NCBI RefSeq assembly: GCF_058153355.1
Contig: NZ_CM177019.1
Direction: 5' to 3' (one strand)
DNA: 64,000 bases
Positions 35,296-52,591 of the stretch are shown piece after piece (positions within the stretch are counted from its first letter, which is position 1; every line of letters begins with the position of its first letter). Below the pieces are notes generated by a model. It made no database searches, was not told where the DNA came from, and saw only the letters and a program-made list of their open reading frames with translations. Both the position numbers and the translations under genes were made by a program.

Positions 35296-38219
35296 ATGCC
35301 CCGCAGCACCTGGTTCAAAGCATTATTGTTGTTTGTTGCCCTTTGGGCACCCTTAAGTCAGGCAGAAACGGGATGGCAGCCGATTCAGGAAACCATCCGT
35401 AAAAGTGATAAAGATAACCGCCAGTATCAGGCTATACGTCTGGATAACGGTATGGTGGTTTTGCTGGTTTCTGACCCGCAGGCGGTTAAATCGCTCTCGG
35501 CGCTGGTGGTGCCCGTTGGGTCGCTGGAAGATCCCGAGGCATACCAGGGGCTGGCACATTACCTTGAACATATGAGTCTGATGGGTTCGAAAAAGTACCC
35601 GCAGGCTGACAGTCTGGCTGAATACCTCAAAATGCACGGCGGCAGCCACAATGCCAGCACGGCACCGTATCGCACGGCTTTCTATCTGGAAGTTGAGAAC
35701 GACGCCTTACCCGGTGCGGTAGACCGCCTGGCCGATGCTATTGCTGAACCCTTGCTCGACAAGAAATACGCCGAACGTGAGCGTAATGCGGTGAACGCTG
35801 AATTAACCATGGCGCGTACGCGTGATGGGATGCGCATGGCACAGGTCAGCGCAGAAACCATTAACCCGGCACACCCAGGTTCAAAGTTTTCTGGTGGTAA
35901 CCTCGAAACTTTAAGCGATAAACCCGGCAATCCGGTACAGCAGGCGCTGAAAGATTTCCACGAGAAATATTACTCTGCCAATCTGATGAAGGCGGTTATC
36001 TATAGCAAGAAGCCGCTACCGGAGCTGGCGAAGATGGCTGCTGATACTTTCGGTCGCGTGCCGAACAAAGAGAGCAAAAAACCGGAAATCACTGTGCCGG
36101 TAGTCACCGACGCGCAAAAGGGCATTATCATTCATTACGTCCCGGCGCTGCCGCGTAAAGTTCTGCGCGTTGAGTTTCGCATCGATAACAATTCAGCGAA
36201 GTTCCGTAGTAAAACGGATGAATTGATTACCTATCTGATTGGTAATCGCAGCCCAGGTACACTTTCTGACTGGCTGCAAAAGCAGGGATTAGTTGAGGGC
36301 ATTAGCGCCAATTCCGATCCTATCGTCAACGGCAACAGCGGCGTATTAGCGATCTCTGCGTCTTTAACCGATAAAGGTCTGGCGAATCGCGATCAGGTTG
36401 TGGCGGCCATTTTTAGCTACCTCAATCTGTTACGCGAAAAAGGGATTGATAAACAATACTTCGATGAACTGGCGAATGTGCTGGATATCGACTTTCGTTA
36501 TCCGTCAATCACCCGTGATATGGATTACGTCGAATGGCTGGCAGATACCATGATTCGCGTTCCTGTTGAGCATACGCTGGATGCAGTCAATATTGCCGAT
36601 CGGTACGATGCTAAAGCAGTAAAAGAACGCCTGGCGATGATGACGCCGCAGAATGCGCGTATCTGGTATATCAGCCCGAAAGAGCCGCATAACAAAACGG
36701 CTTATTTTGTCGATGCTCCGTATCAGGTCGATAAAATCAGCCCACAAACTTTCGCTGACTGGCAGAAAAAAGCCGCCCACAAACTTTCGCTGACTGGCAG
36801 AAAAAAGCCGCCAATATTGCGCTCTCCTTACCGGAGCTTAACCCTTATATTCCTGACGATTTCTCGCTGATGAAGTCAGAGAAGAAATACGACCATCCAG
36901 AGTTGATTGTGGATGAGGCGAATCTGCGCGTGGTGTATGCGCCGAGCCGTTATTTTGCCAGCGAGCCTAAAGCCGATGTCAGCCTGATTTTGCGTAACCC
37001 GAAAGCCATGGACAGCGCCCGCAATCAGGTGATGTTTGCGCTTAATGATTATCTTGCCGGACTGGCGCTTGATCAGTTAAGCAACCAGGCGTCGGTTGGT
37101 GGCATAAGTTTTTCCACCAATGCTAACAACGGCCTTATGGTTAATGCCAATGGTTACACCCAGCGCCTGCCGCAGCTGTTCCAGGCTCTGCTGGAGGGCT
37201 ACTTTAGCTATACCGCTACGGAAGAGCAGCTTGAGCAGGCGAAGTCCTGGTATAACCAGATGATGGATTCCGCAGAAAAGGGCAAAGCGTTCGAGCAGGC
37301 GATTATGCCCGCGCAGATGCTCTCGCAAGTGCCGTACTTCTCGCGAGATGAACGGCGCAAAATTTTGCCTTCAATCACTTTGAAAGAGGTGCTGGCCTAT
37401 CGCGACGCCTTAAAATCAGGGGCTCGACCAGAGTTTATGGTTATTGGCAACATGACCGAAGCCCAGGCAACAAAGCTGGCACGCGATGTGCAAAAACAGT
37501 TGGGCGCTGATGGTTCGGAGTGGTGTCGTAACAAAGATGTCGTGGTCGATAAAAAACAATCCGTCATCTTTGAAAAAGCCGGTAACAGCACCGACTCCGC
37601 ACTGGCAGCGGTATTTGTACCGACTGGCTACGATGAATACACCAGCTCAGCCTATAGCTCTCTGCTGGGGCAGATCGTACAGCCGTGGTTCTACAATCAG
37701 TTGCGTACCGAAGAACAGTTGGGCTATGCCGTGTTTGCGTTTCCAATGAGCGTGGGACGTCAGTGGGGCATGGGCTTCCTGTTGCAAAGCAATGATAAAC
37801 AGCCTTCATTCTTGTGGGAGCGTTACAAGGCGTTTTTCCCAACCGCAGAGGCAAAATTGCGGACGATGAAGCCAGAAGAGTTTGCGCAAATCCAGCAGGC
37901 GGTAATAACCCAGATGCTGCAGGCACCGCAAACGCTCGGCGAAGAAGCATCGAAGTTAAGTAAAGATTTCGATCGCGGCAATATGCGCTTCGATTCGCGT
38001 GATAAAATCGTGGCCCAGATAAAACTGCTGACGCCGCAAAAACTTGCTGATTTCTTCCATCAGGCGGTGGTCGAGCCGCAAGGCATGGCTATTCTGTCGC
38101 AGATTTCCGGCAGCCAGAACGGGAAAGCCGAATATGTGCATCCTGAAGGCTGGAAAGTGTGGGAGAACGTCAGCGCGTTGCAGCAAACAATGCCCCTGAT
38201 GAGTGAAAAGAATGAGTGA
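35296..38219 (+). pseudogene. ptrA: Protease III (pitrilysin, M16 family) disrupted by a 35-bp tandem duplication frameshift at 36742-36811
   Basis: Two consecutive ORFs (35296..36870, 36870..38219) together cover Ptr; HxxEH zinc motif (HYLEHM) in the N-terminal part; direct repeat CCACAAACTTTCGCTGACTGGCAGAAAAAAGCCGC occurs twice in tandem. Confidence 0.8.
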
Positions 38220-45378: not shown

Positions 45379-46632
45379 ATGTCGGGATCCAACACAGCAA
45401 TCAGCCGTCGTCGTTTACTGCAAGGCGCGGGTGCCATGTGGCTATTGAGCGTAAGTCAGGTCAGTCTGGCTGCGGTCAGCCAGGTCGTGGCGGTGCGCGT
45501 CTGGCCTGCGTCCAGCTACACCCGTGTGACGGTAGAATCTAATCGTCAGCTGAAATATAAGCAGTTCGCGTTGAGTAACCCTGAACGCGTGGTGGTGGAT
45601 ATCGAAGATGTAAACCTGAACTCAGTGCTCAAGGGGATGGCGGCACAAATTCGTGCTGATGACCCGTTCATCAAGTCGGCGCGCGTCGGGCAGTTTGACC
45701 CGCAAACCGTGCGGATGGTTTTTGAGTTAAAGCAAAACGTAAAACCGCAGCTGTTTGCCCTTGCTCCGGTCGCCGGGTTTAAAGAGCGTCTGGTGATGGA
45801 TCTCTATCCTGCCAATGCTCAGGACATGCAGGACCCGCTGCTGGCGCTGCTGGAGGATTACAATAAAGGCGATCTCGAAAAGCAGGTGCCGCCTGCGCAG
45901 AGTGGCCCGCAGCCAGGCAAAGCAGGGCGCGATCGTCCGATTGTCATTATGCTTGACCCTGGCCATGGCGGCGAAGACTCCGGTGCGGTGGGGAAATACA
46001 AAACGCGTGAAAAAGACGTGGTATTGCAAATTGCCCGCCGTTTGCGCTCTCTGATTGAGAAAGAGGGCAATATGAAAGTTTACATGACCCGTAATGAAGA
46101 CATCTTCATTCCGTTGCAAGTGCGCGTAGCAAAAGCACAGAAACAGCGTGCTGACTTGTTTGTCTCTATTCATGCCGATGCCTTTACCAGTCGCCAGCCG
46201 AGCGGTTCCTCTGTGTTTGCGCTCTCTACCAAAGGTGCAACCAGTACCGCGGCAAAATATCTGGCGCAAACTCAGAACGCCTCGGACTTGATTGGTGGCG
46301 TGAGTAAGAGCGGCGACCGTTATGTCGACCATACTATGTTCGATATGGTGCAGTCGCTGACCATTGCCGACAGTCTGAAGTTTGGTAAAGCTGTGTTGAA
46401 TAAGCTCGGTAAAATCAACAAGCTGCATAAAAATCAGGTTGAACAAGCCGGGTTTGCCGTGCTGAAAGCGCCTGATATACCCTCCATTTTGGTCGAAACG
46501 GCGTTTATCAGTAACGTTGAGGAAGAACGTAAACTGAAAACGGCAACCTTCCAGCAGGAAGTTGCGGAATCAATCCTCGCAGGGATAAAAGCGTATTTTG
46601 CCGATGGGGCGACGCTGGCGAGAAGGGGATAA
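45379..46632 (+). CDS. amiC: N-acetylmuramoyl-L-alanine amidase AmiC (Tat signal)
   Basis: [23 protein letters not shown]… twin-arginine signal; amidase_3 domain. Confidence 0.92.
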
Positions 46633-46804
46633 TGTTTTTATTTATTCAATGAATTTATATTTCGTTGAATAGATAATATTTACCTGAATATTAGACGTTG
46701 GTTTTGTGACTGATGTCGAATATTTGAATGTCGGCTTGAAAAATAAGCCGACCATCTCTTTAATTAAGCACAATTCCGTGTAATGTATATGCATTAGTTA
46801 ATCA

Positions 46805-46879
46805 TCTTGTAACTGTTAAATCAGGCAAGGCAATGTTTGAAGTAATTATTACTTCTGACGTGCCTTGCCTTTTTTTTTG
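46805..46879 (+). promoter_or_regulatory. Putative RAT (ribonucleic antiterminator)-like element overlapping an intrinsic terminator, leader of the accessory PTS operon
   Basis: TCTTGTAACTGTTAAATCAGGCAAGGC resembles BglG/LicT RAT consensus (GGATTGTTACTG…GCAGGCAAAACC); overlapping hairpin AGGCAAGGCA…TGCCTTGCCT followed by T9. Confidence 0.55.
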
Positions 46880-46889
46880 GAGCTATGGA

Positions 46890-47714
46890 ATGATCATCGA
46901 AAAAGTCATGAACAATAATTGTGTACAGGCATCGATGAATGGACAGGAGGTTATCATTTCTGGGCCTGGCGTCGGTTACAACAAAAAATATGGAATGTCG
47001 GTCCCTGAGCATCCGGCTAACCGGATTTTTTATGTCAGAAATGAACAAAAAAATAAACTCTACAAATTGATTGAACATGTGGATATTGAGTATGTTTTTG
47101 TTGCCGAAAAAATAGTGCAATATGCGGAGAACAATCTCGAAAAAAATCTCAATCCATCGCTACTATTGATTCTTGCTGATCATATTTCGAATGCAATATC
47201 CCGAGTCGCTTCAGGCATACAAATTAATAATGTTTTCCTTGATGAAATCAAAGCGTTGTACAAAGCAGAGTATGCGATAAGTCGCGATGCATTAACTATC
47301 ATTAATGAGCAATTCAGCGTTCAACTTCCTGATGATGAGATTGGTTTTATAGCATTGCATATTTTAAATAATTATGAAAATTCAGTTGATTATGAATCAG
47401 TACGGATTATTGAGTTGTCGCAAATAATCACGGGGCTTATTGAAGTTGTTTATAACAGAAAGGTGGACAGAAGTTCATTTAATTATTCCAGGTTCATGAT
47501 ACACCTTAAATATTTTTCAAGTCGCGTATTATGCAATGAAAAAATAAAACAGAAAGATATTGGTGATCTCTATGAACAGTTTCTTGAGAAAGACATTCTG
47601 TTACAGCGCGCAATTCATGAAATTGAAAGGTATTTGTACGCCACTTTTAAATATGAATTGATTTTGGAAGAAAAACTATATCTCTCTATTCGCACCAAAG
47701 TATTAATGGACTAA
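46890..47714 (+). CDS. BglG/LicT-family transcription antiterminator (CAT RNA-binding domain + PRD domains)
   Basis: ORF 46833..47714; start placed at ATG 46890 with GGAG 8 nt upstream; N-terminal CAT-like region (MIIEKVMNNNCVQASMNGQEVIISGPGVGY…) and PRD-like segments; AT-rich. Confidence 0.75.
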   Translation: MIIEKVMNNNCVQASMNGQEVIISGPGVGYNKKYGMSVPEHPANRIFYVRNEQKNKLYKLIEHVDIEYVFVAEKIVQYAENNLEKNLNPSLLLILADHISNAISRVASGIQINNVFLDEIKALYKAEYAISRDALTIINEQFSVQLPDDEIGFIALHILNNYENSVDYESVRIIELSQIITGLIEVVYNRKVDRSSFNYSRFMIHLKYFSSRVLCNEKIKQKDIGDLYEQFLEKDILLQRAIHEIERYLYATFKYELILEEKLYLSIRTKVLMD

Positions 47715-47745
47715 TTATATATAACATTTATATGAGATAACCCGC

Positions 47746-49326
47746 ATGAAACAAAAGAAAGCCTGGAGTTTTTTTCAGAGCCTGGGAAAGGCATTTATGT
47801 ATCCCATCGCTCTGCTAAGTGTATGTGGCATGATGTTAGGGCTAGGAAGTGGTTTAGCCAGCGATGATATGGCAAAATTAATTCCACTACTGGCTATTCC
47901 CGTAATTAAAACCATTCTTGATTTTATTGTTAGCCTTGGTTTGTTTGCCTTTGTCAATTTACCTGTATTGTTTGCGATAGCTATACCTCTGGGGTTATTA
48001 AAAGAGAAAGAGGATAAAGCCTATGGCGCTTTTTCTGGCTTAATTGGTTTCATGGCGATGCATCTGGGAACGAACTTTTATCTTAAACAACATGACTTAT
48101 TGGTCGCTGCTGATCAAATGTCGACACATGGGCAAACCATTATTCTGGGAATCCAGTCCTACAATACCAGTGTGTTGGGTGGGATTATAGCAGGATTATT
48201 AGTCGCCAGTATGTATAAAAAGATCGTTAACTTACGTATTCCTGAATCATTAGGATTTTATAGTGGCCCACGCCTGGTGCCTATTATTACACTGATTGTG
48301 ATGAGCGGATTTGGTCTGATCATCCCTTTTATCTGGCCGCCATTTTTCAATCTTTTCATGCTCATTGGCCACTGGATTTCAACTTCCGGTCCTGTTGGCT
48401 ATTTTTTCTATGCAGTCGCCGAACGCGTGACGATACCTTTTGGTTTAAATCACCTGGTGACGTCAGTTTTCCGCTTTACCCCCATCGGCGGATCGGCAGT
48501 GATCGGCGGAGAAGAGTATTATGGCACCCTGAACATGTTTATGGCGTACGTCAAAGAGAATGCGGTCATTCCGCTGGATTTGGCGGGGAAAATGGAACAG
48601 GGCAAACTGATGATTCAGTATGGTCTGGCTGGTGCCGCGCTGGCGATGTATCGCACTGCTCATGCTCAAAACAGAAAAGCTATCAAAGCATTGCTTATTT
48701 CCGGGGTGCTTACAGTCATTATTGGCGGCGTCAGCGAACCGATTGAGTTTCTGTTCTTATTTGTCAGTCCACTGCTATTTGTCTTCCATGCTTTTATGAA
48801 TGGATTCGCCAACATGGTCTTGCCATATATGGGCGTGAAGATGGGATTTACTGGCGATCTGATTCAATTTATTAGCTTTGGCGTATTGCGTGGCACAAGA
48901 ACAGGTTGGCCAATAGCGGTGTGTGTCGAAGTGGCCTATTTCTTTATTTATTACTTTGTGTTCCGTTGGACTATTCTCAAATTTAACCTGATGACGGTAG
49001 GCCGTGAAGAGTCCAGTCCTGTCACGCTGAACGCTCATGAGGATACGGCTATAGCGGATATCCCAACGCTTGATAAATCAGAGCTGCAAGCAGCGGAGCA
49101 GATGGTTAAGGCACTTGGTGGTAAAGAGAATATTAAATCCCTGGATAATTGCGTAACTCGTTTACGTTTAACAATCGCAGATATGGGATTGATTGACGAG
49201 GCAGCAATAAAAAGAGCTGGCGGAATTGCGGTTGTTAAACTTGATCAAAATACCCTACAAGTCATTATCGGTACTAAAGTCATCGCCTTGCGTCGGGATA
49301 TGGATAACTACATGGGGATATGCTGA
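47746..49326 (+). CDS. PTS EIICB component, glucose/maltose (MalX-like) family
   Basis: 526-aa ORF, multi-TM EIIC followed by a C-terminal EIIB domain with phosphorylatable Cys motif (NCVTRLRL). Confidence 0.85.
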   Translation: MKQKKAWSFFQSLGKAFMYPIALLSVCGMMLGLGSGLASDDMAKLIPLLAIPVIKTILDFIVSLGLFAFVNLPVLFAIAIPLGLLKEKEDKAYGAFSGLIGFMAMHLGTNFYLKQHDLLVAADQMSTHGQTIILGIQSYNTSVLGGIIAGLLVASMYKKIVNLRIPESLGFYSGPRLVPIITLIVMSGFGLIIPFIWPPFFNLFMLIGHWISTSGPVGYFFYAVAERVTIPFGLNHLVTSVFRFTPIGGSAVIGGEEYYGTLNMFMAYVKENAVIPLDLAGKMEQGKLMIQYGLAGAALAMYRTAHAQNRKAIKALLISGVLTVIIGGVSEPIEFLFLFVSPLLFVFHAFMNGFANMVLPYMGVKMGFTGDLIQFISFGVLRGTRTGWPIAVCVEVAYFFIYYFVFRWTILKFNLMTVGREESSPVTLNAHEDTAIADIPTLDKSELQAAEQMVKALGGKENIKSLDNCVTRLRLTIADMGLIDEAAIKRAGGIAVVKLDQNTLQVIIGTKVIALRRDMDNYMGIC

Positions 49327-50501
49327 TGGATGTTTTTAATACTCCTATTTCCCGCAAAGGAACATATTGTACCCAATGGGACTTTTGCGAGGACAGATTT
49401 GGTGTAAAAGATGTATTACCATTCTCTATTTCAGATATGGATCTTCCGATACCGGAAGCTATCATCAGGGCATTAAGAAAACGTCTGGAACACCCGATTT
49501 TAGGGTACAGCCGTTGGCAGCATGATGACTATCTGAATGCGATAGTCAATTGGTATCATCAACAATATAAAACTGAAATCAAACCAGAATGGATCACCTA
49601 TAGCCCAAGCGTGATGTACTCCATTGCTAAAGCAATAGAGTTATTGACATCGCATGGTGATAATATTCTCGTTTTTACACCTGTCTATAATGCATTTTTT
49701 GATATAATTAAACATAGCGAGAGAAATATTCTGACAGCCTCTTTGATTATAAAAAATGAGGGGGGCTACGCTATCAATTGGCAAGATTTTGATCTTAAGA
49801 TTCAAAGCGCAAAGATGGTGTTATTATGTAATCCTCATAACCCGACAGGAACCGTCTGGTCGGAAGAAGAGCTGCATAAAATCGCTGCAAGCTGTGCAAG
49901 ACATAATGTCTGGTTATGTTCAGATGAAATTCACAGTGATTTTGTTTTTAATCGTAGCTTTACATCTGCGCTTAAAATAAAAAAAGAAAAAGTAGTGGTG
50001 TTTAATTCGATATCGAAGACATTTAATGTTCCTGCGCTAACAGGATCGTATATGATTTCAACTGACGATAATTTTAATCATAAGTTCAGAACGATATCAA
50101 GATATCGCGATTTTGTAAACTCCCCATCCGTACTGAATATAATTGCAACTATTATTGCCTATAACGAATGTGAGGGATGGTTAACGTCATTAAAGGCACA
50201 TATTGCCTCTAACATTCAATTCACCCAGCAGTATCTGAACGAAAATACTCCAGAATTGATCGTAAGGCCAGCTGATGGTTGCTATTTTTCGTGGATAGAT
50301 TGCTCTGCTATTGGTTATCCCTTTGATGAATTCTACAGTCGATTAATTCATGAAGGCAAAGTGGGCATTATGGCGGGGAATGTCTATGGAACGGAGGGGG
50401 AGGGCTACCTTCGTCTGAACCTGGCCTGCGGTCGAGAAAAATTATATATGGGGCTTACGCGTCTTGCGAGTGTAATTAAAAATATTAATCAAGGAAAATA
50501 A
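49320..50501 (+). CDS. PLP-dependent C-S lyase / aminotransferase, MalY/PatB-like paralog
   Basis: Conserved blocks shared with MalY: TYCTQWDF, LPFSISDMD, GYSRW, CNPHNPTG, SDEIH, NSISKTFNVPALTG (PLP lysine). Confidence 0.8.
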   Translation: MLMDVFNTPISRKGTYCTQWDFCEDRFGVKDVLPFSISDMDLPIPEAIIRALRKRLEHPILGYSRWQHDDYLNAIVNWYHQQYKTEIKPEWITYSPSVMYSIAKAIELLTSHGDNILVFTPVYNAFFDIIKHSERNILTASLIIKNEGGYAINWQDFDLKIQSAKMVLLCNPHNPTGTVWSEEELHKIAASCARHNVWLCSDEIHSDFVFNRSFTSALKIKKEKVVVFNSISKTFNVPALTGSYMISTDDNFNHKFRTISRYRDFVNSPSVLNIIATIIAYNECEGWLTSLKAHIASNIQFTQQYLNENTPELIVRPADGCYFSWIDCSAIGYPFDEFYSRLIHEGKVGIMAGNVYGTEGEGYLRLNLACGREKLYMGLTRLASVIKNINQGK

Positions 50502-50503
50502 AA

Positions 50504-51100
50504 ATGAACAGCACGGATCTTATCCATCTCATTAAACATTTTATGCGTAACGAACATAAAGCAGTTGAAGAAGTTATTGATTCTCCCCTTTCGGAGGTCG
50601 CAAATTTAATTAAAGTATTACAGTCTTGTCAGGGGAAAGTTGTTTTTATTGGTGTCGGTAAGTCCGGTATTATTGCCCGAAAACTCGCCGCAACATTTGC
50701 CAGCACTGGAACTCCCTCGTTTTTTGTTCACGGTACTGAAGCCGTACACGGCGATCTTGGGATGGTGGCGAAAGATGATGTTGTTATTCTTATTTCAAAC
50801 AGTGGTGAGACGACAGAAATCCTGGCAACACTACCTAGTCTGAAAAAAATGGGTAATTATTTGATCTCCTTTACCCGCAGTCATCGCTCATCGCTTGCGA
50901 TAAGTTGTGATTTATCCGTTGAAATTCCCGTAAAAAGTGAGGCGGATAATTTAGGTTTAGCGCCGTCATGCTCATCAACAGTCGTTCTGGTTGTTGGTGA
51001 TGCGGTGGCGCTTGCGCTCTCCGAATTGAAAAAGTTTACTCGTGCTGATTTCGGCTTATATCATCCAGGAGGTGCGCTCGGTATTAAAGCAAACTCATAA
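50504..51100 (+). CDS. SIS-domain sugar-phosphate isomerase-like protein (KdsD/GutQ-like SIS domain, no CBS domains)
   Basis: VVFIGVGKSGIIARKLAATFASTGTPSFFVHGTEAVHGDLGMV closely resembles the KdsD/GutQ SIS core; only 198 aa. Confidence 0.75.
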   Translation: MNSTDLIHLIKHFMRNEHKAVEEVIDSPLSEVANLIKVLQSCQGKVVFIGVGKSGIIARKLAATFASTGTPSFFVHGTEAVHGDLGMVAKDDVVILISNSGETTEILATLPSLKKMGNYLISFTRSHRSSLAISCDLSVEIPVKSEADNLGLAPSCSSTVVLVVGDAVALALSELKKFTRADFGLYHPGGALGIKANS

Positions 51101-51161
51101 TTTTAGAATATAAAACAGTAACCGGTCACGCCATCTTTTGGGGTGGCGTTCATTGATGTGA

Positions 51162-52118
51162 GTGTCAGCTATGAAAAACGTTCTGGTCACCGTTCCCAGC
51201 TTTTCAGCGCGTTGTGTTTCTGCCAGCAAGCTGCTAAGAGAAAATCATTTTAACCTTATTATCAAGAATAATGTGGAGCATCTGGTTAAATCAGAATCCA
51301 CAGTATTACGAGAATCTATTTGCGCAGTCATTGCCGGAAAAGATTGTTATCAAGCGGATACGTTATCGCGACTACCAGGAGTGAAAATAATATCGAGATT
51401 CGGGACAGGGATTGATAATATTGATCTTCATACGGCTCGACAATCAGGTATTGTGGTCAATAATGCTGTTGGGATTAATTCAAATGCAGTCGCGGAATTT
51501 ATCATTGGTCTTATTTTTGCGAGCATGAGAAATATCCCCGGTAGCTATCATGCAATGCAAAATGGTTATTGGGGCGAGTCGCATGGCTGCGAGTTACAAG
51601 GTAAACGTATTGGCCTGCTTGGCTATGGCAATATTGGCAAAACACTGGCGAAAAGGTTATCTGGTTTTGATGTTGAGCTTTTAGCTTTTGACAAACAACC
51701 CGATTTCCAGGCCGCAGGCAAAGATGGAGTTCAGTTCGTATCAATTGAAGATATCTTTATGCAGTCTCATGTCATCATCGTTCTTTTGCCATTTTCTCCG
51801 GAGCTGGAGAACTTCATTAGTCATAAATATTTGTCGATGATGCGCAATGGTGCTCTTATCATCAACGCCGCAAGGGGAAAGTTGCTGGATGAGGGTGCTT
51901 TACTTCAGGTAATTGAAGAACGAAATGTTTTTGCAGCACTGGATGTGTTTAGCTCTGAACCGCTAGCGCAATTTAGCCCATTGCTACATGCCAGGAATAT
52001 CATTACAACGCCGCATATTGCGGCCGCCACCGTTGAGTCATACCAGCAAACCGGGATATACGTTGCCAGGTCGATAATAGATTTCTTTGCAGGAAGGGAG
52101 ATAAAAAACGTGCTGTGA
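51162..52118 (+). CDS. D-isomer-specific 2-hydroxyacid dehydrogenase family protein (NAD-binding)
   Basis: 318-aa ORF with GLLGYGNIGKTLAKRL Rossmann motif, family catalytic His/Arg context. Confidence 0.8.
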   Translation: MSAMKNVLVTVPSFSARCVSASKLLRENHFNLIIKNNVEHLVKSESTVLRESICAVIAGKDCYQADTLSRLPGVKIISRFGTGIDNIDLHTARQSGIVVNNAVGINSNAVAEFIIGLIFASMRNIPGSYHAMQNGYWGESHGCELQGKRIGLLGYGNIGKTLAKRLSGFDVELLAFDKQPDFQAAGKDGVQFVSIEDIFMQSHVIIVLLPFSPELENFISHKYLSMMRNGALIINAARGKLLDEGALLQVIEERNVFAALDVFSSEPLAQFSPLLHARNIITTPHIAAATVESYQQTGIYVARSIIDFFAGREIKNVL

Positions 52119-52147
52119 GGTCAGCTAAGGAAGATTTCAGGTACAAA

Positions 52148-52182
52148 AAAACCGCAATCTGTGAAACACATTGCGGTTTATC
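52148..52182 (+). terminator. Putative terminator hairpin downstream of the accessory operon
   Basis: AACCGCAAT-…-ATTGCGGTT inverted repeat after the dehydrogenase stop; weak T-tract. Confidence 0.45.
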
Positions 52183-52196
52183 AGCATCATAAGTGT

Positions 52197-52273
<77 letters not shown>

Positions 52274-52306
52274 TCACCGTACTGCTTTACTTCATCAAAT
52301 TTTGAT

Positions 52307-52383
<77 letters not shown>

Positions 52384-52591
52384 TCCGTGGATGCGCACTA
52401 TACTCCGCTCGCGTTTTCATGCAACCTTTTTTTTACCCGGATCACGGATTTGGCATGATTTTGAGCAAAAACAAATCACTAAAGCCTGTTTTTTGTGCAA
52501 AATTTGCGTCAGGGAGAGGCTGCTCATTTCATTAAACGCGGCGGTTTGTTATCTTCATTGCGCCTTATTTTTTAAACTGAAGAAGAGAACA

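What the first reader, a model, noticed from the sequence alone, without database searches (positions are those of the whole stretch)
49320..50501. Second MalY-type C-S lyase paralog in a PTS context
The protein shares multiple conserved blocks with MalY, which in E. coli is both a beta-C-S lyase and a protein-level repressor of MalT, and whose gene follows the PTS gene malX. Here a diverged MalY paralog again follows a MalX-like EIICB, suggesting a duplicated and neofunctionalised malXY-like module. Whether it is purely enzymatic or also a regulator is open.
Basis: inference. Interest (0 to 1): 0.5.

Follow-up and report, generated by a model that had tools for sequence, protein, structure and literature searches.

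The report
MalY-like lyase in malX island
The gene is real and encodes a MalY/PatB-type PLP lyase. It is the third gene of an already described five-gene sugar-uptake (PTS) operon, the "malX" island used as a marker of extraintestinal pathogenic E. coli; its substrate is unknown, and it lacks the MalY surface that binds the maltose regulator MalT.

Summary
An intact ORF (49320-50501, probable true start 49326) encodes a MalY/PatB-family PLP enzyme: TIGR04350 scores 368 bits against a cut-off of 340, and the match to E. coli MalY is E=1e-85 at 37% identity. It lies directly after a MalX-like EIICB gene.

It is not a local duplication of malXY. It sits in a 5.6-kb low-GC cassette inserted between amiC and tRNA-fMet, absent from K-12 and present in 31% of complete E. 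coli genomes. The cassette holds a LicT-type antiterminator with a RAT/terminator leader, the EIICB, the MalY-like gene, a single-SIS-domain arabinose-5-phosphate isomerase and a 2-hydroxyacid dehydrogenase.

This is the CFT073 c3405-c3410 cassette of PAI-metV. Its EIICB is the classical ExPEC "malX" PCR marker. The closest operon outside the enterobacteria is C. difficile CD3027-CD3031, whose MalY is a cysteine desulfhydrase in vitro.

Catalytic residues are conserved and dN/dS is about 0.12. Six of the eight MalT-contact residues are replaced non-conservatively, so a MalT-repressor role is unlikely.

All 79 informative loci encoding close relatives carry a PTS permease gene nearby, and some also carry peptidases. 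This points to an enzyme acting on a PTS-delivered amino-acid conjugate.

Verdict: already known, function unresolved, modest interest.

The parts
46631..52195 (.). Accessory cassette (5,565 bp) inserted between the amiC stop codon and the 3' end of tRNA-fMet. It replaces the 73-bp amiC-metV spacer of K-12.
   Evidence: Homology to K-12 MG1655 stops at 46630 and resumes at 52196. GC is 0.39-0.42 against about 0.52 in the flanks. At least 80% of the cassette region (window 46600-52400) is present in 1683 of 5426 complete E. coli genomes. The same five genes lie next to amiC in CFT073.
46804..46834 (+). RAT-like antiterminator target (cTTGTAACTGTTAAATCAGGCAAGGCAat) in the operon leader.
   Evidence: It matches the motif TGT[TA]AC[TC]G...[CG][AG]GGCAA. 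The same motif marks canonical GGATTGTAACTG...GCAGGCAAAACC units upstream of the C. difficile EIICB gene. It overlaps the 5' arm of the terminator. Rfam has no matching family.
46823..46879 (+). Leader intrinsic terminator: a long hairpin (AGGCAAGGCA...TGCCTTGCCT) followed by a run of nine T.
   Evidence: The RNA fold has a centroid energy of -28.1 kcal/mol and z=-4.0 against shuffles. Citrobacter carries a compensatory pair change, GGCA/TGCC to GACA/TGTC.
46890..47714 (+). LicT/BglG-family transcription antiterminator (274 aa). The ORF start at 46833 listed mechanically lies inside the leader terminator.
   Evidence: NCBIfam LicT 2e-67 and GlcT 2e-52, both below cut-off. Orthologues carry Pfam CAT_RBD and PRD. 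PGAP starts the gene at 46890, after a GGAG.
47746..49326 (+). PTS EIICB of the glucose family, MalX-like. There is no EIIA domain. This is the gene behind the ExPEC 'malX' PCR marker.
   Evidence: TIGR02004 537 bits, and PtsG/NagE models score lower. The EIIB motif NCVTRLR and the EIIC motif GGVSEP are present. The Johnson & Stell RPAi primers (PMC12058657) match the CFT073 copy exactly, 922 bp apart, spanning antiterminator to EIICB.
49326..50501 (+). The finding: a MalY/PatB-family PLP-dependent beta-lyase (391 aa, or 393 aa from the alternative ATG at 49320). Homologue of the CFT073 MalY/PatB gene, which should be c3407 if the original c-numbers follow gene order (inferred, not checked).
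   Evidence: K233, D201, H204, N173, Y121, Y61 and R365 (MalY numbering) are invariant across 84 clade members. It is 95.7% identical to the CFT073 protein. dN/dS is 0.11-0.13. The start overlaps the EIICB stop codon.
50504..51100 (+). Single-SIS-domain sugar-phosphate isomerase lacking CBS domains. Homologue of CFT073 c3406, an arabinose-5-phosphate isomerase.
   Evidence: KdsD 4e-58 over the SIS part only, and TIGR00393 kpsF 192 bits. It is nearly identical to the solved structure 5UQI/5VHU (404 bits over 198 aa). It is 97% identical to the CFT073 protein. The existence and title of Mosberg et al. 2011 were confirmed from reference lists.
51171..52118 (+). D-isomer-specific 2-hydroxyacid dehydrogenase (PGDH/glyoxylate-reductase-like, 315 aa). 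Homologue of c3405.
   Evidence: PGDH 6e-62 and glyoxylate reductase 1e-48, all below cut-off. The best PDB match is 1WWK at 2.5e-48. Among type-A operons it is found only in E. coli, Citrobacter and Atlantibacter.
52145..52180 (.). Hairpin (CCGCAAT...ATTGCGG) flanked by an A-run and TTTAT. It is the probable operon terminator, facing the convergent tRNA genes.
   Evidence: Read directly from the sequence printed. It was not picked up by the consensus scan.
52197..52383 (-). Two tRNA-Met(CAU) genes (52197-52273 and 52307-52383) that bound the cassette.
   Evidence: ARAGORN and Rfam. K-12 has three copies, metZ, metW and metV, annotated as initiator tRNA.

Best explanation
The ORF encodes a catalytically competent, PLP-dependent MalY/PatB-family beta-lyase. 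It is the third gene of a substrate-inducible PTS catabolic operon.

Proposed mechanism:
1. When the unknown sugar-type substrate is absent, transcription stops at the leader terminator.
2. When the substrate is transported, the LicT-type antiterminator binds the RAT and allows read-through.
3. The MalX-like EIICB, presumably fed by the general EIIA-Glc, imports and phosphorylates the substrate.
4. The MalY-like enzyme carries out an alpha,beta-elimination on an amino-acid (Cys/Ser-type) part of that substrate or of a derivative. The products would be pyruvate, ammonium and the leaving group.
5. The SIS isomerase (arabinose-5-P/ribulose-5-P activity) and, in enterobacteria, the 2-hydroxyacid dehydrogenase process the remaining products.

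The enzyme is not a MalT anti-activator.

Shown here: family membership, intact catalytic residues, purifying selection, operon anatomy, the RAT/terminator, loss of the MalT patch, and conserved PTS linkage.

Inferred: that the lyase acts on the PTS-delivered compound, and the nature of that compound.
For: Family and active site.

Operon structure: five co-oriented genes with gaps of -1 to 70 nt, and a TGATG overlap between EIICB and the lyase.

Leader: a RAT overlaps a strong terminator (z=-4.0). The motif is conserved, and a compensatory change occurs in Citrobacter.

Conserved module: antiterminator-EIICB-MalY-SIS recurs in Citrobacter, Atlantibacter, Enterobacter sp. ENT03, Enterococcus termitis, Clostridium sp. 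KNHs214, C. difficile and Solobacterium.

PTS linkage among the 80 best genome loci:
- 74 of 79 informative loci have a glucose-family EIICB gene immediately upstream of the lyase gene.
- The other five have Lac- or Fru-family PTS permease genes instead.

Peptidase genes in the same clusters: PepT-like in 5 loci; YpdE-like M42 plus YpdF-like M24 in 3 loci. L. sakei is similar (PMC5845896).

In-frame MalY-SIS fusion proteins exist in some E. coli and Shigella.

dN/dS is 0.11-0.13.

The C. difficile orthologue operon is co-regulated, and its MalY is a cysteine desulfhydrase in vitro (PMC6143707).

MalT patch: six of eight residues changed non-conservatively, including S218L. V. furnissii MalY, with only D182C and S218V, cannot repress (PMC10427625; mapping).
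Against: - No substrate is known for this operon or for any malXY pair.
- The only activities demonstrated for family members are generic ones (cystathionine, cystine, cysteine, racemisation) on free amino acids.
- The SIS enzyme's known activity (A5P/Ru5P) does not obviously connect to a hexose-type PTS product or to a beta-elimination.
- Gene linkage cannot prove a shared pathway. E. coli MalY is linked to malX yet is best known for a moonlighting role.
- The 80 loci were selected with MalY-clade-specific peptide patterns, so the linkage figure applies to this clade only.
- The NJ tree has no support values.
- No EIIA is encoded in the cassette, so dependence on Crr is an assumption.
Confidence: 0.55

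Rival explanations
1. It is a general sulfur-amino-acid enzyme (cystathionine beta-lyase / cysteine desulfhydrase) that makes homocysteine, H2S and pyruvate from free amino acids. On this view its place in a PTS operon reflects co-regulation, for example linking cysteine or pyruvate supply to sugar uptake, not a shared substrate.
For: It passes the PatB C-S lyase model. E. coli MalY and C. difficile MalY (CD3029) show exactly these activities in vitro, and CD3029 expression responds to cysteine and SigL. The residues that bind the alpha-carboxylate and PLP are generic for the family.
Against: A PTS permease gene lies next to the lyase gene in all 79 informative loci, across several phyla and three PTS families. 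Peptidase genes recur in these clusters. Both are hard to explain by co-regulation alone. The PTS-linked clade also has invariant residues and insertions that are absent from the PatB-type solved structures compared: T16-Q17, D23-R24-F25 and R63-W64.
Confidence: 0.25
2. It works as a true aminotransferase paired with the downstream PGDH-like dehydrogenase, following the logic of SerA/SerC or PdxB/SerC. Together they would interconvert a 2-amino, a 2-oxo and a 2-hydroxy phospho-sugar acid derived from the PTS substrate.
For: It has the fold-type-I aminotransferase fold, and many aminotransferase models hit at 1e-24 to 1e-40. A 2-hydroxyacid dehydrogenase is encoded two genes downstream. One solved relative is deposited as 'aspartate aminotransferase' (8JUJ).
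Against: The dehydrogenase is missing from the clostridial, enterococcal and Enterobacter sp. ENT03 versions, and from all type-B pairs, so it is not part of the conserved core. The protein passes the C-S-lyase model, but every aminotransferase model listed scores below its cut-off. To my knowledge (not checked here), no MalY/PatB member has been shown to be a physiological transaminase.
Confidence: 0.1
3. It is a bifunctional enzyme and regulator like E. coli MalY. It would sequester MalT or another STAND/PTS regulator to cross-regulate the maltose system.
For: It is homologous to MalY. The C. difficile orthologue is annotated 'cystathionine beta-lyase/repressor' by similarity. The homodimeric scaffold is presumably kept.
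Against: Of the eight MalT-contact residues, six are replaced non-conservatively, with charged or bulky side chains at five: A84E, C181E, E185H, S218L, N219K, A221K. Two changes are conservative: D182E and R222K. A MalY with only D182C and S218V is inactive as a repressor. These positions are unconserved across both clades, even in Enterobacter MalY orthologues. The module occurs in Firmicutes; the L. sakei authors found no MalT homologue in that genome.
Confidence: 0.05

Closest known systems
E. coli CFT073 c3405-c3410 cassette of PAI-metV (the 'malX' PAI marker). This gene corresponds to the MalY-like ORF upstream of c3406, probably c3407.
   Same: The same five genes lie in the same order next to amiC. 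Nucleotide identity is 94% and the lyase is 95.7% identical at protein level (47). The cassette is listed as 'PTS system, maltose/glucose specific' in PMC2831201 and as GR19, with 36% identity to MalY, in PMC12928451. The RPAi malX primers hit the CFT073 copy exactly.
   Different: This window carries a minority allele: it is at least 99% identical in only 94 genomes, against 1173 genomes in the 95-99% band that holds the CFT073 allele (95.2% identity computed from the blastn figures). The cassette stands alone here, without the adjacent T6SS cluster of CFT073. The RPAi primer sites carry 2 and 5 mismatches.
C. difficile 630 operon CD630_30270-30310 (EIIA-Glc, phosphosugar isomerase, malY/CD3029, malX, antiterminator)
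   Same: It shares the antiterminator-EIICB-MalY-SIS core in the same order. The EIICB is 68% identical, the lyase 49-51% and the SIS protein 52%. Both use RAT/terminator control. CD3029 has cysteine desulfhydrase activity in vitro.
   Different: C. difficile ends the operon with an EIIA-Glc gene instead of a 2-hydroxyacid dehydrogenase. Its RAT-terminators lie between the antiterminator and EIICB genes, in 3-4 tandem copies. CD3029 is reported to be essential, whereas the E. coli gene is accessory.
E. coli K-12 malI-malX-malY; MalY structures 1D2F and 8BOB
   Same: The order is EIICB then lyase. The fold and PLP/catalytic residues are the same. Both belong to the PTS-linked 'CTQWD' clade and not to the PatB-type solved structures compared.
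   Different: Identity is only 37% for the lyase and about 41% for the EIICB. Regulation is by a LicT-type antiterminator here; among the type-B loci, 21 have a LacI-family gene on the opposite strand upstream (presumably MalI-like; family read by eye) and 31 an RpiR-type regulator. SIS and dehydrogenase genes are added. The MalT-binding patch is not conserved.
PatB-type cysteine-S-conjugate beta-lyases (B. subtilis PatB 6QP3; structures 9K71, 3T32, 8JUJ, 4DGT)
   Same: They match the same NCBIfam family and share the catalytic Lys, Asp, His, Asn, Tyr and Arg.
   Different: The PatB-type sequences have SxKW where the MalY clade has CTQW. The three Bacillus-type sequences (9K71, 3T32, 8JUJ) lack the four-residue DRFG segment, and all four lack the R-W after the active-site Tyr loop. 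The PTS context of these PatB-type genes was not examined here.
GutQ in the E. coli glucitol PTS operon (from my own knowledge, not tested here)
   Same: An arabinose-5-phosphate isomerase is encoded inside a PTS sugar operon, and its metabolic link to the transported sugar is unclear.
   Different: GutQ carries CBS domains, and the gut operon has no PLP lyase.

Membership tests
MalY/PatB C-S lyase family (TIGR04350) | Whole-protein HMM score above the curated cut-off | tested here: met
   368.2 bits against a cut-off of 340, aligned over 6-386 of 393.
MalY/PatB C-S lyase family (TIGR04350) | Fold-type-I (class I/II aminotransferase) domain with the Schiff-base lysine and the PLP/carboxylate-binding residues | tested here: met
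   Pfam PF00155 at 6e-48. K233 is kept in the SxSKxFN motif. Y61, Y121, N173, D201, H204, K233 and R365 are invariant in 84 clade sequences.
MalY/PatB C-S lyase family (TIGR04350) | Beta C-S lyase activity (pyruvate, NH3 and thiol released from cystathionine or a Cys conjugate) | not testable with these tools
   Only indirect evidence: the C. difficile orthologue is active on cysteine in zymograms (PMC6143707 and PMC5767170).
MalY sensu stricto (MalT anti-activator of E. coli) | Conserved MalT-contact patch (A84, C181, D182, E185, S218, N219, A221, R222) | tested here: not met
   The residues here are E, E, E, H, L, K, K, K. The interface list comes from PMC10427625. The patch is variable across relatives.
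MalY sensu stricto (MalT anti-activator of E. coli) | Orthology with E. coli MalY (same clade, malI-malX-malY context) | tested here: not met
   Identity is 37%. It falls in a separate NJ clade from EcMalY and the Enterobacter orthologues. The regulator is a LicT-type antiterminator, not a LacI-type repressor.
MalY sensu stricto (MalT anti-activator of E. coli) | Repression of the mal regulon on overexpression | not testable with these tools
   Needs a reporter assay.
CFT073 c3405-c3410 / 'malX PAI marker' cassette | Same gene content, order and chromosomal site (amiC-metV) | tested here: met
   All five proteins are 93-99% identical to those of CFT073.
CFT073 c3405-c3410 / 'malX PAI marker' cassette | Amplifiable with RPAi-f/RPAi-r (Johnson & Stell 2000) | tested here: inconclusive
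   The primers match CFT073 perfectly, 922 bp apart. In this window the forward site has 2 mismatches and the reverse site 5. PCR outcome was not predicted.
BglG/LicT-type antitermination operon | CAT-PRD antiterminator protein, plus a RAT sequence overlapping an intrinsic terminator upstream of the regulated genes | tested here: met
   LicT model at 2e-67. Orthologues carry CAT_RBD and PRD. RAT motif plus terminator with z=-4.0. Actual binding and read-through were not tested.
PTS glucose-family EIICB (MalX-like) | EIIC and EIIB domains with the phosphorylatable Cys motif | tested here: met
   TIGR02004 at 537 bits (below the equivalog cut-off of 632) and the EIIB_glc domain above its cut-off. 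NCVTRLR is present. Specificity is unknown.

The most novel reading that the evidence does not exclude
The MalY clade (motif CTQWD) as a whole may not be a set of stray cystathionases. These enzymes may be dedicated lyases for PTS-imported, phosphorylated sugar-amino-acid or sugar-peptide conjugates, such as O- or S-glycosyl Ser/Cys or glycated peptides. Peptidases would trim the peptide, and the lyase would release the sugar phosphate plus pyruvate and ammonia.

On this reading the ExPEC malX cassette would be the version that feeds on a host-derived conjugate in the urinary tract. The same logic would give a function to E. coli malXY, and perhaps to the orphan frv and ypd/fry PTS-peptidase operons.
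Probability: 0.2. Interest if true: 0.7.

Novelty: already known. Interest (0 to 1): 0.3.

Why it matters
The gene sits in the cassette whose EIICB is scored as 'malX', one of the most widely used PCR markers of extraintestinal pathogenic E. coli. From my memory of Lloyd 2009 and Mosberg 2011 (neither paper was held), deleting c3405-c3410 lowers CFT073 fitness in mouse urinary tract infection.

Nobody knows what the operon imports or why it needs a PLP lyase. The physiological role of MalY itself has also been open since 1991.

The comparative result here is that this lyase clade is always PTS-linked and sometimes peptidase-linked. That narrows the search to amino-acid-bearing sugar conjugates. 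As a sequence finding, however, it is an annotated allele of a published gene.

Tried and rejected
- Another MalY-like gene in the window: tblastn with both the island protein and E. coli MalY found only this one.
- Rfam scan of 46400-52500: it returned only the tRNAs and a sub-threshold YrlA hit over them. There is no RAT family, so the leader was analysed by motif and folding instead.
- Consensus promoter/terminator scan: it gave no more sites than shuffles did, and it missed the long leader hairpin. No promoter is assigned.
- Papers not held: Mosberg 2011, Lloyd 2009, Clausen 2000 and Zdych 1995. The API activity of c3406, the mouse UTI phenotype and the structural description of the MalY pocket therefore rest on titles, citing papers or my memory.
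- Literature searches for a substrate of malXY, CD3027-31 or the frv/ypd operons: nothing found.
- 'Recent horizontal acquisition' was considered and rejected. Synonymous divergence between cassette alleles (dS 0.14-0.48) is similar to that of the flanking amiC (dS 0.32-0.37). The cassette therefore looks old at this site, with later losses.
- A racemase role like L. sakei MalY was considered. It cannot be tested here and is not linked to context.
- Structure prediction was not run. The tools return no coordinates, so pocket geometry could not be measured.
Full report
**1. Where we are.** The window is E. coli chromosome. The gene order is recC, ptrA, recB, recD, argA, amiC, then five extra genes, then tRNA-Met genes, mltA, tcdA, csdE and csdA. 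The five extra genes lie in a stretch with GC 0.39-0.42, against about 0.52 on either side.

Alignment with K-12 MG1655 shows homology ending at 46630, the end of amiC, and resuming at 52196, the 3' end of a tRNA-fMet gene. A 5,565-bp cassette therefore replaces the 73-bp amiC-metV spacer of K-12.

**2.
- The ORF at 49320-50501 is intact.
- It matches Pfam Aminotran_1_2 at 6e-48.
- It passes the curated cut-off of NCBIfam TIGR04350 'PatB family C-S lyase', 368 against 340 bits.
- Its best solved relative is E. coli MalY (1D2F/8BOB) at E=1e-85, with 36.6% identity over 382 residues.
- It follows a 526-aa glucose-family EIICB whose best model is 'PTS-IIBC-malX' (537 bits, below the 632 equivalog cut-off). 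That protein carries the EIIB Cys motif NCVTRLR.
- The EIICB stop codon and an ATG at 49326 overlap as TGATG. PGAP starts the gene there and homologues align from that Met. The likely start is therefore 49326.
- No other MalY-like gene is in the window.

**3. The whole unit.** All five genes are on the + strand:
- a LicT/BglG-type antiterminator (true start 46890);
- the EIICB (47746-49326);
- the MalY-like lyase;
- a 198-aa protein that is only a SIS domain of the KdsD/KpsF/GutQ type (50504-51100);
- a PGDH-like D-2-hydroxyacid dehydrogenase (51171-52118).

The leader upstream of the antiterminator gene contains cTTGTAACTGTTAAATCAGGCAAGGCA. This overlaps the 5' arm of a long hairpin (AGGCAAGGCA...TGCCTTGCCT) followed by nine T. 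The fold is far more stable than shuffles (z=-4.0).

The same RAT motif recurs at the homologous place in other E. coli alleles and in Citrobacter, which carries a compensatory change in the terminator stem. Canonical GGATTGTAACTG...GCAGGCAAAACC units stand before the C. difficile EIICB gene. This is the standard anatomy of substrate-induced antitermination. The ORF start at 46833 listed mechanically lies inside the terminator.

**4. It is a published cassette.** In CFT073 the same five genes lie next to amiC, followed by a T6SS cluster. The window's proteins are 93-99% identical to them, and the lyase is 95.7% identical.
- Bryant et al. list c3405-c3410 of PAI-CFT073-metV as 'PTS system, maltose/glucose specific' (PMC2831201).
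- A 2026 genome paper tabulates the same five ORFs (GR19), including 'MalY, 36.27% to MalY P23256' and '41.02% to MalX' (PMC12928451).
- The SIS protein is nearly identical to the solved structures 5UQI/5VHU. By gene order it corresponds to c3406, the subject of Mosberg et al. [quoted passage not shown] The title was confirmed, but the paper is not held, so its content is from memory.
- The Johnson & Stell RPAi primers for the ExPEC marker 'malX' (PMC12058657) match CFT073 perfectly, 922 bp apart, from the antiterminator gene into the EIICB gene. The gene upstream of the finding is therefore that marker.

The lyase gene is present once in 1688 of 5426 complete E. coli genomes. The window allele (at least 99% identity) occurs in only 94 of them. 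A further 1173 fall in the 95-99% band, which holds the CFT073 allele, and 390 in the 80-90% band.

**5. Not a duplication of malXY.**
- Outside Escherichia, Citrobacter and Atlantibacter (68-69% identity), the nearest relatives of the lyase are an Enterobacter sp. ENT03 protein and several unnamed metagenomic proteins (52-61%), then Enterococcus termitis, Clostridium and C. difficile proteins (48-51%). E. coli MalY is more distant at 37%.
- The EIICB behaves the same way: 64-78% identity to these partners, against 41-47% to EIICBs of classical malXY pairs.
- In an NJ tree the loci that also carry the SIS gene ('type A') group apart from the large 'type B' group. Type B contains E. coli MalY, its Enterobacter orthologues, Vibrionaceae, Fusobacterium, Brachyspira, Bacilli and enterococci (no support values).
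- C. difficile 630 has the same core as CD630_30310-30270: antiterminator, malX, malY (CD3029), phosphosugar isomerase and EIIA-Glc. These genes are co-regulated.
- The dehydrogenase is found only in the E. coli, Citrobacter and Atlantibacter versions.
- Within E. coli the cassette is old. Synonymous divergence between alleles (dS 0.14-0.48) is like that of the adjacent amiC, which differs from CFT073 at 86 synonymous sites and no amino acid.

**6. Enzyme or regulator?** The catalytic set (Y61, Y121, N173, D201, H204, K233, R365, in MalY numbering) is invariant in 84 clade sequences. The gene is under purifying selection, with dN/dS of 0.11-0.13, the highest in the cassette but still low.

The cryo-EM MalT-MalY paper names the MalY contact residues as A84, C181, D182, E185, S218, N219, A221 and R222. 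It also notes that V. furnissii MalY, with only D182C and S218V, cannot repress (PMC10427625). Here these positions read E, E, E, H, L, K, K, K. They vary freely in both clades, even among Enterobacter MalY orthologues. A MalT-type regulatory role is therefore unlikely. It is an E. coli-lineage speciality rather than a property of the family.

**7. What the context suggests.** Of the 80 best genome loci (one genome per species):
- 74 of 79 informative loci have a glucose-family EIICB gene directly upstream of the lyase gene.
- Three others (Peptacetobacter, C. intestinale, Olsenella) have Lac-family EIIA/B/C genes plus a YpdE-like M42 and a YpdF-like M24 aminopeptidase.
- Granulicatella has an Frv-like Fru-family EIIBC, an FrvR-like regulator and a PepT-like peptidase.
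- One Lachnospiraceae locus has a homologue of that Fru-type EIIBC.
- PepT-like genes also follow the lyase gene in four Vibrio species.
- L. sakei malY lies in a Lac-PTS cluster with two aminopeptidases (PMC5845896).
- Upstream regulator genes among the type-B loci fall into three groups: an RpiR/MurR type with a phosphosugar-sensing SIS domain (31 loci), a LacI-like type (21 loci; family read by eye from the sequence, not scanned) and a 587-aa protein with no NCBIfam match (13 loci, family unassigned).
- Some E. coli and Shigella encode in-frame MalY-SIS fusions.
- Compared with the PatB-type solved structures, the PTS-linked clade has its own invariant features near the N-terminal lid and the active-site Tyr loop: CTQW in place of SxKW, R63-W64, K374 and, relative to the Bacillus-type sequences, an extra DRFG segment.

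Together this favours an enzyme that works on an amino-acid-bearing compound delivered by the PTS. It does not identify the compound, and it does not explain the A5P isomerase.

**8. Verdict.** The cassette and the MalY homology are already in the literature and in PGAP annotation ('MalY/PatB family protein'). The function remains open. Interest is modest (0.3). The clade-wide PTS and peptidase linkage is the one lead worth an experiment.

Noticed in passing
window 36730-36799 (within ptrA, 35296-38219): A 35-nt tandem duplication splits pitrilysin (ptrA) into two ORFs of 524 and 449 aa. CFT073 has a single 962-aa gene. This is either a frameshifted pseudogene or an assembly error.
   Followed up: partly
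window 52197-52383: There are only two tRNA-Met(CAU) copies here, against three (metZ, metW, metV, annotated as initiator tRNA) in K-12 and in strain 24A16CRGN010, whose cassette matches this one at 99.7%.
   Followed up: partly
L004 6000-6415 (C. difficile, between the antiterminator and EIICB genes); L016 6096-6400: Four tandem RAT-plus-terminator units (three in L016) with a period of about 104 nt precede the malX-like gene. Such serial antitermination checkpoints are unusual.
   Followed up: no
P0003, P0005, P0009 (E. coli / Shigella proteins): These are in-frame fusions of the MalY-like lyase to the downstream SIS isomerase (550-592 aa). One arose by loss of the stop codon, another by a deletion of about 28 residues at the junction.
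   Followed up: partly
window 45379-46632 (amiC) compared with L088: amiC differs from the CFT073 copy at 86 of 1254 nucleotides with no amino-acid change (dS about 0.37). This is more diverged than recB, recC, lgt and thyA (96-98% identity), and suggests old allelic lineages hitch-hiking with the cassette.
   Followed up: partly
window 47591-47612 and 48491-48512: The standard ExPEC 'malX' primers RPAi-f and RPAi-r have 2 and 5 mismatches in this allele. Strains carrying it, or the 80-90% allele, may score malX-negative by PCR although they carry the cassette.
   Followed up: partly
L034 3686-9167, L051, L084, L017 2191-7831, L024-L026, L030: In some relatives the MalY-clade gene sits in an operon with Lac- or Fru-family PTS genes and with YpdE-like, YpdF-like or PepT-like peptidases. 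These resemble the orphan frv and ypd/fry PTS-peptidase operons of E. coli.
   Followed up: partly
window 1-8000: A second low-GC stretch (0.31-0.41) carries several short minus-strand ORFs. It is probably another accessory region and was not examined.
   Followed up: no
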